From Promethearchaeota archaeon (GTDB lineage Archaea > Asgardarchaeota > Heimdallarchaeia > Hodarchaeales > Hodarchaeaceae), in contig JBHLMN010000014.1 in the NCBI GenBank assembly GCA_048938105.1, forward strand, positions 99,062 to 163,061: a DNA stretch of 64,000 bases, written 5' to 3'. The notes below the pieces were generated by a model that was given only the letters and a program-made list of their open reading frames with translations, made no database searches and was not told the origin of the DNA. The position numbers and the translations under genes were made by a program. Of the stretch, positions 33,423 through 62,315 are shown in pieces (within the stretch, counting starts at the first letter, position 1; every line of letters begins with the position of its first letter).

Positions 33423-33935
33423 TTGAATCTCAAAGAATCTTCTACTTCGGTTGCTCTTGATAAAGTATCTGCTCATTTTAGTGCCTCCCATGCACTAATT
33501 TCTGATGATTACGAAGAAGGATTTCATGGACATAATTATCAGGTTGAGGTAGAAGTTGAGGGGGAAATAGATGAGAATAACATGATAATTGACTTTGTTT
33601 TTCTAGAGAATCTCATTTGCAGAATCGTTTCATCCTGGGATCATTATGTTCTGCTTCCATCAAATAATAGGTACATAGAATTCAAAGAAAACAACCATAA
33701 TATGGAAATTATGTATGGAGATCGTTACTATTCTATTCCCAAAACAGAAATTAAAATGTTAGATTGCACTAACGTTACCACAGAAGCGTTAGCTAGATTA
33801 TTAGGAGGGAAAATCCGCGATCATTTGAAGAAAGAGGTTTTTTGGAAAAGAATCGAGGCTATTAAAGTTACAATATGGGAAACATCCCGTTATCGCGCAA
33901 GTTATACTATTAAAACCAATTTCTCAGAATATTAA
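33423..33935 (+). CDS. 6-pyruvoyl-tetrahydropterin synthase family protein (PTPS-III-like)
   Basis: HFSASH, EEGFHGHNY (Glu, no Cys), WDH, TTEALA, IWET. Confidence 0.85.
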   Translation: MNLKESSTSVALDKVSAHFSASHALISDDYEEGFHGHNYQVEVEVEGEIDENNMIIDFVFLENLICRIVSSWDHYVLLPSNNRYIEFKENNHNMEIMYGDRYYSIPKTEIKMLDCTNVTTEALARLLGGKIRDHLKKEVFWKRIEAIKVTIWETSRYRASYTIKTNFSEY

Positions 33936-34722
33936 CAATATTAGTTTTTGGAAATCCTGAAATTTGTTGCCCTTGGCAAGTTAAATTGTAACGTAGTCCA
34001 TTATGTTGAGAATAATAAGTGTCTATTAAGTTTAGAGCGATTCGGAATTTTTCAAGTTTTTTTCTTTGTGTTTTCTTGATTGGGGAGTTTAATGTGCTAT
34101 ATTCCCCGATTTGTGTTCCAAAATCAAAACCAATTAATCCAATTAAAGGGGATTGAAAATGAATTGCCATAAAAATCGCACGATCACCATCAGTAAACCC
34201 ACCAAAATTAAAAAGGACTTGCCCTGGATTACACTGAGTAGTTCCCCAAACATCATTCTTGGTAATTAAATCATTATTTTCGTCAAAAAACCAAGAAATA
34301 CATTGTTGATTATCACCATGGGCATGAATTAATGTCAAAGCACCTTTTTCTATGGCCCAACTAATTGCATTTAAATCCCCATCAAGATCGGTGACTACTA
34401 TGGATGGAATAACATTCCTTTGATTGAATAATGTTGTTGCACCATCAACAGCAATCGTATGAAAATTTTTAGTTGTTTTATTTGAATAAGGGCCCAAGAA
34501 AATAGCTGAAAAATCCTTTTTTAAGGAGGGGCCAGCTCCTGCAATAATCACAGGTTTTTGATGAATTATTTTCAATTTTTGAAGGATTTTATCTTTTTTA
34601 GCGAGATTTAACTCTTTTAAATATGTTTCTAGTAATTTCGCTGATTGTTCATCGGCCTCTGTATCGAAACCTAACTGTCCAATTATCTGATAATAGCTTT
34701 TCTTCCATTCTAGCCAATTCAT
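33910..34722 (-). CDS. mptE: 6-hydroxymethyl-7,8-dihydropterin pyrophosphokinase MptE
   Basis: GAGPSL, AVDGA, VVTDLDG, HAHGDN, NFGGFTDGDRA, GFDF. Confidence 0.9.
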   Translation of the reverse strand: MNWLEWKKSYYQIIGQLGFDTEADEQSAKLLETYLKELNLAKKDKILQKLKIIHQKPVIIAGAGPSLKKDFSAIFLGPYSNKTTKNFHTIAVDGATTLFNQRNVIPSIVVTDLDGDLNAISWAIEKGALTLIHAHGDNQQCISWFFDENNDLITKNDVWGTTQCNPGQVLFNFGGFTDGDRAIFMAIHFQSPLIGLIGFDFGTQIGEYSTLNSPIKKTQRKKLEKFRIALNLIDTYYSQHNGLRYNLTCQGQQISGFPKTNIVNILRNWF

Positions 34723-34748: not shown

Positions 34749-34756
34749 TATTTAAA
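34749..34756 (+). promoter_or_regulatory. Candidate TATA box for the 5S precursor
   Basis: TATTTAAA about 25-30 nt upstream of the structured leader. Confidence 0.45.
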
Positions 34757-34806
34757 GACTCTTGAATGCGCTCCTTTTGGTTTGTAGCTGCGACTATAAC
34801 CATTTT

Positions 34807-34981
34807 GCGCCAATAACCTGCGAGACTCTGCCGGAAGTTAAGTTAGGTTCCGTTTCGATCTGTACTGTTGTGCGCGAGCCAACGGGAACATTGGAAAGCT
34901 GAGTATTGCTCGGTCAAAGGGCCTGAGTTACACCCGGTCTCATTCCGAACCCGGAAACAGAGTTTCCTTATCATTAGGCGC
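34807..34981 (+). other. Processing stem with BHB/BHL motif enclosing the permuted 5S
   Basis: GAGACTCTG 34822-34830 pairs with CAGAGTTTC 34958-34966; CCGG 34831-34834 with CCGG 34951-34954; bulges AAA and AA(G); GCGCC 34807-34811 with GGCGC 34977-34981. Confidence 0.8.
34837..34956 (+). rRNA. rrf: 5S rRNA, circularly permuted gene (3' half 34837-34905, 5' half 34907-34956)
   Basis: Loop C/helix III ACACCCGGTCTCATTCCGAACCCGGAA lies downstream of GTTAAG...TGTACTGTTGTGCGCGAGCCAACGGGAAC; helices I-V all pair; length 120 nt. Confidence 0.93.
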
Positions 34982-34989
34982 TATTTCCA

Positions 34990-34996
34990 TTTTTTT
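34990..34996 (+). terminator. T7 terminator of the 5S precursor
   Basis: T run just after the closing stem. Confidence 0.5.
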
Positions 34997-35248
34997 CTTG
35001 TATGTTTCCATCAGAATGTGATTTTATCATTATCAATTCTCTCCTTTCACACCTTGATTTCAGTACATGAAATCATTAATGTTTTATTGTTAGTAGAAAA
35101 GAAGTACTTTTGATCCTCAACACAACAATTGGTATTTCAATATTGCCTTCAGCTCTTGTAGCGATAACAGAAAGGTATTTATTCCCTAAATCTTACGAAG
35201 TTGGCTATACATATTTTGTGTGGGTTTATACCTACATGGAGGTATTGA

Positions 35249-36160
35249 ATGGTATTCTCATCGATCGCTCAAAGTTATTTCGATGAATTTCCATTTCGAC
35301 ATCGAGCTCGTCGGAAACCATCTTCAGGATATTTTTTCCTGTCCCACGCTCACTCTGACCATACATCTGGTCTTAAATCGAGTTTAACTGATCCTGATGC
35401 TATGATAGTTTGTTCTAAGGAGACAGAAGCAGTTATAAGGGTACTTTATGGTATTCCCCAAGAAAAATGTCTTATTATAAACCCCAATCAATCCTTGGAC
35501 TTCGATCATTTTATTGTTCACGCTTTGGATGCCAATCATTGTTTGGGTAGTATAATTTATGTAATTGAATCAAAAGAAGGATTGAAAGAGGTATATACAG
35601 GTGATTTTAGATTAGGATCCCCCATTTTCGATGAACTTAGTTTGATTAAAGGAGCTAATCATCTCTGGGTTGACTATACTTATGGGAAAGACCCGATTTT
35701 TAAATTTCCAACAAGAGAAGAATTAATTTCACAAATTATCTCTTTAATCTTATCAGAAGAGAATTATCCTTCAAGAGATGTATGGATTGCTGCATATCAA
35801 ATCGGTAAAGAACTTCTCCTTAAGACAATTAGCGAAGCGTTGAAAATAAAAATTTGGGCTTCAGATCAGAAAGTCTCAATCTACAAGGAAATTGGAGGAG
35901 AATGGGATATTTTCACTAATGATACAGATTCGAGAGTGTTTGTTGGAAGTCGTCGAATGGTAGAGGGATTATATGGAATTAAAAAACAATATCAAACAAA
36001 AATGTCAGATGCTTTACGAATCTCACCTACCGGTTGGTCAGCACGCTTACAAAAAAAACACTTAGACGTGCATTTTTTCCCTTACTCTGATCATTGTTCA
36101 TATTCAGAGGTTCATAAATTCATTGAGTTAGCCACAGCAGAAAGAATCACAAAAATCTGA
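35249..36160 (+). CDS. SNM1/Pso2/Artemis-like beta-CASP metallo-beta-lactamase nuclease
   Basis: FLSHAHSDH, DANHCLGS, YTGDFR, VDYTY, IGKE, PTGWS, PYSDHCS. Confidence 0.85.
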   Translation: MVFSSIAQSYFDEFPFRHRARRKPSSGYFFLSHAHSDHTSGLKSSLTDPDAMIVCSKETEAVIRVLYGIPQEKCLIINPNQSLDFDHFIVHALDANHCLGSIIYVIESKEGLKEVYTGDFRLGSPIFDELSLIKGANHLWVDYTYGKDPIFKFPTREELISQIISLILSEENYPSRDVWIAAYQIGKELLLKTISEALKIKIWASDQKVSIYKEIGGEWDIFTNDTDSRVFVGSRRMVEGLYGIKKQYQTKMSDALRISPTGWSARLQKKHLDVHFFPYSDHCSYSEVHKFIELATAERITKI

Positions 36161-58520: not shown

Positions 58521-58626
58521 AGCCGCTGGTGGGACTTGAACCCACGACCAACAGATGTCTTGAGTTTTCTTTTTAATAGAGGATAACTTTACGAGTCTGT
58601 CGCTCTACCAACTAAGCCACAGCGGC
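58521..58626 (-). tRNA. tRNA-Thr(CGT) with 33-nt intron at 37/38 (58557-58589)
   Basis: GCCGCTG/CAGCGGC acceptor stem, ACAGA-CT CGT A^A-TCTGT, BHB at the junction. Confidence 0.92.
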
Positions 58627-62197: not shown

Positions 62198-62315
62198 CGC
62201 CAGCGGAGAGATTTGAACTCTCGAGCTCAGAGAGCACATGCTACCTGGAGAAACGAAAGGCTTTCTTTCATCAGAATTTCCAGGCATGCTTCCTACCGGA
62301 CTAGAATACGCTGGC
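62198..62315 (-). tRNA. tRNA-Ser(GGA) with 35-nt intron at 37/38 (62243-62277)
   Basis: GCCAGCG/CGCTGGC acceptor stem, CATGC-CT GGA A^A-GCATG, long variable arm, discriminator G. Confidence 0.93.

What the first reader, a model, noticed from the sequence alone, without database searches (positions are those of the whole stretch)
34807..34981. Circularly permuted 5S rRNA gene predicted to be restored by BHB splicing into a 120-nt circle
Seen: the 5S 3' half (34837-34905: GUUAAG, helix II strand, loop-E-like UGUA/GAA, GCGA tetraloop) comes before the 5' half (34907-34956: ...ACACCCGGUCUCAUUCCGAACCCGGAA). Helix I (GCUGAGU/GCUCGGU) is closed by a 3-nt AUU loop where the native termini should be. 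Helix II (34919-34926/34843-34850) and the 34853-34859/34890-34896 helix also pair. CCGGAA occurs at both ends, and a 9-bp stem (34822-34830/34958-34966), an AAA bulge, a 4-bp CCGG/CCGG helix and AA(G) form a bulge-helix-bulge/loop. Established: the archaeal splicing endonuclease EndA cuts after the second bulge nucleotide and RtcB ligates; Thermoproteus SRP RNA is restored this way, and permuted 5S genes are known from some algal mitochondria. Inference: cuts after 34836 and 34956 release exactly 120 nt, and ligation recreates the canonical GAACCCGGAA|GUUAAG, so the rRNA is encoded as an intron-like circle. I know of no described archaeal permuted 5S gene, and standard rRNA finders would miss or truncate it.
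Basis: partly seen in the sequence, partly recalled or inferred. Interest (0 to 1): 0.97.

Follow-up and report, generated by a model that had tools for sequence, protein, structure and literature searches.

The report
Back-to-front 5S rRNA gene, circularised
This Asgard archaeon (Heimdall/Hod group, close kin of eukaryotes) encodes its only 5S ribosomal RNA with the back half before the front half, between tRNA-splicing-type cut signals. Environmental RNA from a close relative contains the predicted re-joined 120-base ring, which explains why 5S genes look missing in these genomes.

Summary

- **The gene.** Window 34837-34956 is a complete 120-nt 5S rRNA in swapped order. Rfam positions 52-120 come first, then 1-51. 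The native ends are closed by a 3-nt loop.
- **The flanks.** They form a bulge-helix-bulge motif: a 9-bp outer helix, a 4-bp CCGG:CCGG helix and two 3-nt bulges.
- **No colinear copy.** None was found in the 99%-complete genome.
- **Relatives.** They carry the same arrangement, with compensatory changes in the 5S helices and in the outer flank helix.
- **RNA evidence.** A marine-sediment metatranscriptome contig of 150 nt, about 97% identical, equals the 120-nt circle plus a 30-nt (k-1) overlap. It holds both the predicted junction and the helix-I cap, with no flank letters.
- **Enzymes.** Two EndA paralogs and RtcB are encoded.
- **Spread.** A model of the permuted form hits 21 of 27 Asgard families sampled at E ≤ 0.001, 19 of them strongly. 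Six families have a colinear 5S above Rfam's cut-off.

Whether the ribosome keeps the ring or re-opens it is untested.

No paper describing this turned up. Wu et al. 2022 state that 5S could not be predicted in complete Heimdallarchaeum genomes.

This scan has noted the same thing before on other DNA (116 notes, at least 92 genomes).

The parts
34751..34756 (+). TATA-box-like TTTAAA, about 30 nt upstream of the likely transcript start
   Evidence: An A/T hexamer (TTTAAA, ATATAA or TTATAA) followed by G/A-CTCTTGAA sits at the same column in most genus members. Its promoter function is inferred.
34783..34798 (+). Small leader hairpin (UGUAG/CUAUA)
   Evidence: It is in the MFE fold. Relatives have different sequences that also pair, such as GTTGTAG/CTACAAC and GTTTGT/ACAAAC. 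Its role is unknown.
34807..34811 (+). Distal processing stem, 5' arm (GCGCC), pairs with 34977-34981
   Evidence: MFE fold. By eye, relatives keep the pairing with other letters, such as ACGCC/GGCGU, AGGCG/CGCCU and GUUACGC/GCGUAAC.
34822..34830 (+). Outer helix h of the BHB, 5' arm (GAGACUCUG)
   Evidence: It pairs with 34958-34966. In 26 sequences, 9 of 10 pairs have changes on both sides, and 88.5% of cells are paired against 22-54% when slid.
34831..34834 (+). Central 4-bp helix H, leader strand (CCGG)
   Evidence: It pairs with 34951-34954. Across families the pair set changes together: CCGG:CCGG, CGUG:CACG, CUGG:UCAG, CGGG:CCCG.
34835..34837 (+). 5' bulge AAG; predicted cut after 34836
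   Evidence: The geometry is a 3-nt bulge next to H. The RNA contig has 34950 followed by CCGGAA and then 34837, so the leader upstream of CCGGAA is absent.
34837..34906 (+). 5S rRNA 3' part: loop B 3' side, helix II 3' strand, helices IV/V with loop E and the GCGA tetraloop, helix I 3' strand
   Evidence: profile positions 51-114.
34905..34907 (+). AUU cap that joins the native 3' and 5' ends of helix I
   Evidence: Helix I pairs 34898-34904 with 34908-34914 and is 99.4% paired in 51 sequences. In other families the cap is a UNCG-type tetraloop. The cap is present in the RNA contig.
34907..34956 (+). 5S rRNA 5' part: helix I 5' strand, loop A, helix II 5' strand, helix III and loop C
   Evidence: model 27-51, 20.8 bits; profile positions 4-50.
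34951..34954 (+). Central helix H, 3' strand (CCGG); the same letters are the 3' strand of helix III in the mature RNA
34955..34957 (+). 3' bulge AAA; predicted cut after 34956
   Evidence: The RNA contig ends its match at 34956 and continues at 34837.
34958..34966 (+). Outer helix h, 3' arm (CAGAGUUUC)
34977..34981 (+). Distal processing stem, 3' arm (GGCGC)
34990..34999 (+). T-run (7 T, then CTT), the likely archaeal terminator
   Evidence: A T-run lies in a similar position in many relatives. Inferred.

Best explanation
This is the organism's single, functional 5S rRNA gene, encoded circularly permuted as its own small transcription unit of roughly 34780-34999.

The proposed pathway has four steps:
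1. In the precursor, leader and trailer pair. The pairing is a distal 5-bp stem, a 9-bp outer helix and a 4-bp CCGG:CCGG helix flanked by two 3-nt bulges, which is a bulge-helix-bulge or bulge-helix-loop motif.
2. The tRNA-splicing endonuclease (EndA, here two paralogous subunits) cuts after the second nucleotide of each bulge, that is after 34836 and after 34956.
3. RtcB joins the 5'-OH and 2',3'-cyclic phosphate ends of the released 120-nt piece.
4. The new bond recreates ...GAACCCGGAA-GUUAAG... in loop B. Helix III then re-forms from its own two strands and the RNA takes the normal 5S three-way fold. Helix I is closed by a 3-nt loop where other organisms have free ends.

Shown here:
- the permutation;
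- the absence of any colinear copy in the assembly;
- covariation of the 5S helices and of the outer flank helix;
- presence of the joined form, with the cap, in RNA of a close relative;
- presence of the enzyme genes.

Inferred: that EndA and RtcB are the enzymes, and that the ring itself sits in the 50S subunit.

My odds are about 0.6 that the ring sits in the ribosome and about 0.25 that it is re-opened. The confidence below is for 'permuted sole 5S gene, cut out and re-joined at the predicted site'.
For: 1. **Order and identity.** Rfam halves are swapped. The re-permuted sequence scores 69.7 bits full length against colinear Asgard 5S, while the genomic order gives two swapped half hits.
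2. **Sole copy.** RF00001 finds nothing else in the 5.85-Mb, 99%-complete genome. The permuted model R1 finds one copy at 123.1 bits. The joined 16-mer is absent from the genome with up to 1 mismatch.
3. **Conservation.**
 - The same arrangement is in 28 of the loci fetched from class relatives.
 - It is in 61 named genome records, mostly labelled Heimdall- or Hodarchaeota.
 - The only colinear 5S hits in the class sample lie beside bacterial 23S on ~2-kb contigs.
4. **5S structure.** 94.2% of cells are paired against 30-46% when slid, and 24 of 38 pairs show compensatory change.
5. **BHB.** The outer helix has 9 of 10 pairs compensatory. In 22 genomes of 16 families (by the search tool's family codes) an outer helix of 5-14 bp abuts a 4-bp H with 3-nt bulges, and the predicted joint always restores CGGAAGUUAAG-type loop B. 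The H pair sets differ between families.
6. **RNA.** Metatranscriptome run X1 holds one contig of 150 nt at depth 15.7. In sense it reads 34930-34950, then 34831-34956, where the aligner placed the CCGGAA on the identical leader copy 34831-34836 rather than 34951-34956. That equals 34930-34956 joined to 34837-34956, plus 3 nt. This is 120 + 30 nt, with both the cap and the junction and no flank letters.
7. **Enzymes.** Two EndA paralogs of 188 and 218 aa, each with N and C domains, and one RtcB at 539.6 bits. Intron-bearing tRNAs in the same window show the pathway is in use.
8. **Precedent.** The Thermoproteus permuted SRP RNA is cut by the splicing endonuclease and circularised (PMC4731332).
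Against: - The inner helix h' is weak. It is UU/AA only, 78.8% paired, with no covariation, so the motif is closer to bulge-helix-loop on the 5' side.
- In 7 of 26 relatives the leader strand is CCGA, which gives an A-C mismatch in H.
- The unconstrained MFE fold of this precursor pairs the leader CCGG with the 5' strand of helix III (34934-34937) rather than with 34951-34954. CCGG occurs three times, so thermodynamics alone does not choose the BHB. The choice rests on other families, where H fits only the 3' strand.
- The RNA evidence is one assembled contig from one run, from a relative with 3-4 differences rather than this strain. An assembled unitig cannot prove that single molecules are closed, nor give ends or abundance.
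- No evidence bears on which form is in ribosomes.
Confidence: 0.88

Rival explanations
1. The ring is only a processing intermediate. After ligation, a second cut in or beside the AUU cap re-opens helix I, and ribosomes hold a normal linear 5S, as is believed for circular pre-16S and pre-23S in many archaea.
For: Circular pre-rRNA intermediates that are later re-linearised are the textbook archaeal pathway (PMC12918454 background). P. furiosus 23S is re-opened elsewhere (PMC7758197). An assembled contig cannot tell a minor intermediate from the main form.
Against: The cap is only 3 nt here, and in other families it is a UNCG-type tetraloop on a 7-8-bp helix, which looks like a permanent structural cap rather than a processing spacer. 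No second BHB or spacer exists at the cap. The RNA unitig closes without a branch and includes the cap k-mers. Engineered E. coli ribosomes function with circularly permuted 5S rRNA linked into 23S rRNA, so free native 5S ends are not required (PMC7283268).
Confidence: 0.25
2. The RNA works as a linear, permuted 5S with a permanent nick in loop B. It is cut but not ligated, or simply end-trimmed, as in the stramenopile mitochondrial 5S that stays permuted in the final product.
For: Permuted mitochondrial 5S rRNAs are permuted in the mature RNA too (PMC4267664). The canonical fold is also compatible with the linear permuted form in silico.
Against: The junction CCCGGAA|GUUAAG exists in RNA. The flanks have the exact BHB geometry and covary, which simple trimming would not need. 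Rfam's mtPerm-type models gave no hit at E up to 10.
Confidence: 0.05
3. Artefact or dead copy: a misassembly, a collapsed tandem repeat, or a pseudogene, with the true colinear 5S unassembled.
For: rRNA genes are often missing from MAGs. This genome has 65 contigs and 7% estimated contamination.
Against: The same arrangement with unique flanks is in closed chromosomes (CP084166, CP084167, CP070695 and others) and in 84 of 150 sampled Asgard genomes. All helices covary, which indicates purifying selection. The distribution is nearly complementary to that of colinear 5S. Wu et al. could not find a 5S in complete Heimdallarchaeum genomes (PMC8813620).
Confidence: 0.02

Closest known systems
Permuted, circularised SRP RNA of Thermoproteus tenax (Plagens et al. 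2015, eLife, PMC4731332)
   Same: A universal structured RNA is encoded 3' part first. [quoted passage not shown]
   Different: The RNA here is 5S rRNA, not SRP RNA. The arrangement is found across most sampled Asgard families rather than a few Thermoproteus species. Cleavage and protein binding are not tested here.
Circularly permuted tRNA genes (Cyanidioschyzon merolae, Soma et al. 2007; Thermofilum pendens, Chan et al. 2011, PMC3218864)
   Same: The 3' half precedes the 5' half, with a BHB at the junction of the flanks and a circular RNA formed by the splicing machinery.
   Different: In tRNAs the circle is an intermediate that RNase P and tRNase Z re-open at the joined native ends. Here the native ends are joined by a 3-4-nt cap with no spacer and no known processing site.
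Permuted mitochondrial 5S rRNA of brown algae and other stramenopiles (Valach et al. 2014, PMC4267664; Rfam mtPerm-5S)
   Same: A 5S rRNA gene with shuffled domains.
   Different: [quoted passage not shown] Here the normal connectivity is restored. No Rfam hit to that family was found.
Circular pre-16S/23S and circular mature 23S rRNA of archaea (PMC12918454; PMC7758197)
   Same: BHB in a processing stem, EndA cut, RtcB ligation and a circular rRNA. Some archaea keep circular 23S in ribosomes.
   Different: Those genes are colinear and the BHB joins the native ends. That paper's background states that the process involves 16S and 23S 'but not 5S rRNAs'. Here the gene is permuted and ligation is needed to build the molecule at all.
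Low-level end-joined circles of colinear 5S rRNA in Sulfolobus and Halobacterium (Danan et al. 2012, PMC3326292)
   Same: Circular 5S species seen in RNA-seq.
   Different: Those are minor, unvalidated species from a colinear gene, joined at the native ends. They are relevant mainly as a possible evolutionary source of a permuted gene.

Membership tests
5S rRNA (Rfam RF00001) | Three-way junction with helices I-V and loops A-E, supported by covariation | tested here: met
   38 pairs, 94.2% of cells paired against 30-46% when slid, 24 pairs with compensatory change in 51 sequences.
5S rRNA (Rfam RF00001) | Score above Rfam's gathering cut-off (38 bits) on the genomic sequence | tested here: not met
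   two partial hits of 20.8 and 19.2 bits in swapped order. The failure comes from the permutation: the re-permuted sequence gives one 69.7-bit hit to a profile of colinear Asgard 5S. No tool here could run cmsearch on the re-permuted sequence.
5S rRNA (Rfam RF00001) | It is the genome's 5S, with no other candidate | tested here: met
5S rRNA (Rfam RF00001) | Component of the large ribosomal subunit | not testable with these tools
   Needs purified ribosomes or cryo-EM.
BHB substrates of the archaeal splicing endonuclease | Two 3-nt bulges on opposite strands separated by a 4-bp helix | tested here: met
   CCGG (34831-34834) pairs with CCGG (34951-34954), with bulges AAG and AAA. The same geometry is in 22 genomes of 16 families.
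BHB substrates of the archaeal splicing endonuclease | Flanking helices h and h' of at least 2 bp | tested here: inconclusive
   The outer h is 9 bp and covaries. The inner h' is only UU/AA, 78.8% paired, with no covariation. This looks like a relaxed BHB or BHL.
BHB substrates of the archaeal splicing endonuclease | Cleavage by EndA at the second/third bulge nucleotide and ligation by RtcB | not testable with these tools
   The genes are present. The joined product has the exact predicted junction in RNA. The enzymes themselves are not assayed.
Permuted RNA genes restored through a circle (SRP RNA and tRNA type) | 3' part upstream of 5' part with the native ends adjacent | tested here: met
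Permuted RNA genes restored through a circle (SRP RNA and tRNA type) | RNA containing the back-splice junction | tested here: met
   a 150-nt RNA contig equal to a 120-nt circle plus a 30-nt overlap. It comes from a relative about 97% identical, one run, and is an assembled contig only.
Rfam mtPerm-5S (stramenopile mitochondrial permuted 5S) | Match to the family model; the RNA stays permuted | tested here: not met
   No hit at E up to 10 among 4227 families. The joined form exists.

The most novel reading that the evidence does not exclude
The mature 5S rRNA in the ribosomes of most Asgard archaea is a covalently closed ring made from a permuted gene. The permutation is old and shared by Heimdall/Hod, Odin-like, probably Loki-like and many other families.

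The lineage leading to eukaryotes, if it arose within Heimdallarchaeia, would then have had to revert to a colinear 5S gene. Alternatively it branched before the permutation. Either way, this is a rare genomic change that can be used to test the placement of eukaryotes and the branching order of Asgard classes.
Probability: 0.45. Interest if true: 0.95.

Novelty: new variant of a known kind. Interest (0 to 1): 0.9.

Why it matters
- **It closes a stated gap.** Wu et al. 2022 wrote that 5S genes 'could not be predicted' in complete Heimdallarchaeum genomes. Standard finders miss these genes, so such MAGs are likely to be scored as lacking a 5S gene in quality checks that ask for one.
- **It extends a known repair route to a universal ribosomal RNA.** The 'permuted gene repaired by the tRNA-splicing machinery' principle moves from tRNA and one SRP RNA to 5S rRNA, across most families of a phylum. 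Ribosome production there would then depend on EndA and RtcB.
- **It would be the first ring-shaped 5S.** If the ring is the mature form, it joins the recently reported circular 23S.
- **It offers a phylogenetic marker.** The clean split between families with permuted and colinear 5S is a discrete character in the group from which eukaryotes are thought to derive.

Tried and rejected
- **Rfam at gathering threshold.** On the window and on the whole genome it finds no 5S. This is not evidence of absence of a 5S, because the halves hit separately.
- **Scan of JGI metagenome contigs for the joined form.** A 30-mer gave 0 hits. The control for the cap form gave only 1 contig. The lineage is rare in that collection, so the negative says little.
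- **Sequencing-run search.** It returned only one RNA run with a small share of words. No raw-read run was available, so ends, strand, abundance and the ratio of junction to flank reads could not be measured.
- **Unconstrained MFE folding.** It did not select the BHB register in this sequence. I rejected it as an arbiter because CCGG occurs three times.
- **Automatic BHB search.** It found no adjacent outer helix in f3, f18, one f5 genome and f6. The two rows it printed for G039 and G050 are spurious.
- **G001 insertion.** I considered the 29-nt insertion in G001's loop C as a possible intron. No excision restores the consensus exactly, so it is left open.
- **Naming unnamed families.** 'Odin-like' for f8 (1.4-Mb closed genome) and 'Loki-like' for f14 are guesses.
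- **Literature.** Searches found no archaeal permuted or BHB-made circular 5S.

Full report
**What is there.** The window comes from a 5.85-Mb, 99%-complete archaeal genome. Its relatives in public records are labelled Heimdallarchaeota or Hodarchaeota. The finding lies in a 526-bp gap between a divergent MptE-like kinase gene (33910-34722, minus strand) and a metallo-beta-lactamase/DRMBL gene (35249-36160, plus strand).

**Identity and order.**
- Rfam at its curated thresholds sees only three tRNAs in the window, two of them with long introns. It sees no 5S anywhere in the genome.
- With a permissive threshold, two partial 5S hits appear, and they are in the wrong order. Model positions 27-51 lie at 34932-34956. 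The second hit lies upstream at 34803-34906 and is real over roughly model positions 52-113.
- I built a profile from 24 colinear 5S genes of other Asgard families. It gives one continuous 69.7-bit hit on the re-permuted sequence (34907-34956 followed by 34837-34906). On the genomic order it gives two half hits, profile 51-114 first and 4-50 second.
- The native ends are joined by AUU (34905-34907) on a 7-bp helix I.

**It is the only 5S and it is conserved.**
- Forty class relatives show the same paired sub-threshold pattern.
- nhmmer with the locus finds full-length homologues in 28 loci.
- A strict pattern that demands the swapped order finds 61 stretches among 185,579 species' genomes. Almost all are labelled Heimdall- or Hodarchaeota. 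They include closed chromosomes CP084166 and CP084167 (two copies each), CP070665, CP070695 and CP070760.
- The only two above-threshold colinear 5S hits in the class sample sit next to bacterial 23S rRNA on ~2-kb contigs, so they are bin contamination.
- The joined 16-mer is absent from this genome.
- Wu et al. [quoted passage not shown]

**Structure.**
- I wrote the canonical 5S structure in permuted order on 51 distinct homologues. It has 94.2% of cells paired, against 30-46% for partners slid by 1-3 columns. Of 38 pairs, 24 have changes on both sides.
- Helix III switches from CCGG/CCGG to UCAG/CUGA between families.

**The flanks.**
- In 26 sequences of the f1/f2/f4 type, the 10 columns upstream of the leader CCGG pair with the 10 columns after the 3' bulge. 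Nine of ten pairs show compensatory change, and 88.5% of cells are paired against 22-54% when slid.
- The 4-bp central helix uses the leader CCGG (34831-34834) and the 3' strand of helix III (34951-34954). Its variants are CUGG (a wobble pair) and CCGA (a mismatch, 7 of 26).
- The bulges are AAG and AAA. Under the standard rule, cutting between the second and third bulge nucleotide (my knowledge of BHB substrates, not tested here), the cuts fall after 34836 and after 34956. The joint gives ...CCCGGAA-GUUAAG..., exactly the consensus.
- A further distal stem (34807-34811 with 34977-34981), a TATA-like box (34751-34756) and a T-run (34990-34996) frame a transcript of about 200 nt.

**A weakness.**
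- The MFE fold pairs the leader CCGG with the other CCGG, the 5' strand of helix III. The inner helix is only two A-U pairs.
- The register is nevertheless fixed by comparison. In other families H is CGUG:CACG, CUGG:UCAG, CGGG:CCCG or CAGG:CCUG, and the leader can pair only with the 3' strand.
My fold agrees that the alternatives compete.

**RNA.**
- One marine-sediment metatranscriptome run holds a single contig of 150 nt at depth 15.7.
- In sense it covers 34930-34950, then 34831-34956 (the CCGGAA was placed on the identical leader copy), then 3 more letters. This is equivalent to 34930-34956 joined to 34837-34956.
- That is a 120-nt circle written with a 30-nt overlap, which I take to be k-1 for these contigs.
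- It contains both the helix-I cap and the predicted junction, with no leader or trailer letters. It has 3-4 differences, so it comes from a close relative.
- A colinear gene could not give the cap, and the genomic locus could not give the junction. A spacer-less tandem array could, but every genomic copy seen has unique flanks.
- This shows that ligation at the predicted bond occurs. It does not show that single molecules are closed, nor which form is in ribosomes.

**Enzymes.** The genome has two EndA paralogs of 188 and 218 aa, each with N- and C-terminal domains and 29% identical to each other. This suggests a two-subunit enzyme of the kind known for broad substrate range, which is an inference. 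It also has one RtcB.

**Scope.**
- I built a covariance model of the permuted form (R1) and searched 150 genomes spread over the phylum. Family counts exclude G000.
 - It hits 21 of the 27 families sampled at E ≤ 0.001. Nineteen have strong hits of roughly 59-132 bits, including a 1.4-Mb closed genome family (f8) and f9, f10, f12, f13, f18, f19, f21-f26.
 - f14 is matched more weakly (38-65 bits).
- RF00001 is above its cut-off in six families: f11 26/26, f17 17/19, f20 3/5, and f15, f27, f28.
 - R1 gives only 32-38-bit hits in f11 and f17, which overlap or adjoin their colinear 5S genes.
 - R1 gives nothing at that threshold in the other four. f16 matched neither model.
 - One in-class exception is a 38.4-bit RF00001 hit in G138 (f7) at the edge of a small contig.
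- In 22 genomes of 16 families, the outer helix (5-14 bp), H and the bulges have the canonical geometry, and the predicted products are 120-131 nt.
- Two breakpoint registers occur (GGAA|G and GGA|AG), and both restore the same loop B.
- This scan had already noted the phenomenon in other genomes: 116 notes in at least 92 genomes. I did not use those as evidence.

**Comparison with what is known.**
- The mechanism matches the Thermoproteus permuted SRP RNA and permuted tRNA genes.
- It differs from stramenopile mitochondrial permuted 5S, which stays permuted.
- It differs from circular pre-16S/23S, whose genes are colinear and for which 5S is explicitly excluded in the recent literature.
- Low-level circles of colinear 5S were seen in Sulfolobus and Halobacterium. 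They offer a possible origin, through re-integration or a tandem duplication with deletion, which is speculative.
- Five literature searches found no description of an archaeal permuted or BHB-made 5S.

**Verdict.** This is a real, conserved, permuted 5S rRNA gene whose transcript is cut out and re-joined. It is a new RNA class for a known mechanism, of high interest. Whether the ribosome uses the ring remains open.

Noticed in passing
L025, L005, L029 (family f3) and L151, L164 (family f18): In these families a ~20-30-nt hairpin sits between the outer stem and the leader H strand. A second H-like copy (UCAG in f3, CGUG-AGA in f18) lies directly next to the outer stem. Two alternative 5' cut sites are therefore possible. 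One would give a circle about 35 nt longer, which would need a second, intron-like excision.
   Followed up: partly
L021:1535-1683 (= G001, also L082 and L149): One species of the same genus has a 29-nt insertion inside loop C/helix III of the permuted 5S (a 149-nt core), with a small hairpin and a repeat of CAUUCCG. No excision restores the consensus exactly, so whether it is an expansion or an intron is unresolved.
   Followed up: partly
L175 (G128, f14), also G066, G056, G144, G161: Some f14 genomes have ~150-nt matches to the permuted model, with a ~30-nt insertion in the helix IV/V arm.
   Followed up: no
window 58521-58626 (-) and 62198-62315 (-): Two tRNA genes carry 35-37-nt introns, and the second also has an insertion in the variable region. 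This shows active BHB splicing in this organism.
   Followed up: no
G000:C38 (L152:1474-2040:-, L153:1408-2064:-, and a third weak hit in L154): Two divergent EndA paralogs lie within 33 kb on one contig. A third fragment matches the catalytic domain with an in-frame TAA.
   Followed up: partly
G138 (f7): C77, C90, C106, C132: Four identical matches to the permuted model lie at the ends of small contigs. One overlaps a 38.4-bit RF00001 hit. This may be a repeated or tandem 5S region in that genome and is worth a look as a possible transitional arrangement.
   Followed up: no
window 34868-35113 (+): An 81-aa ORF overlaps the 5S gene. It is almost certainly spurious but would be called by gene finders where the rRNA is not annotated.
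   Followed up: no
L049, L068, L071, L082: Records labelled Thorarchaeota, Hermodarchaeota or Bathyarchaeia carry 5S loci identical or near-identical to Heimdall/Hod types. The labels or the bins are probably wrong.
   Followed up: no
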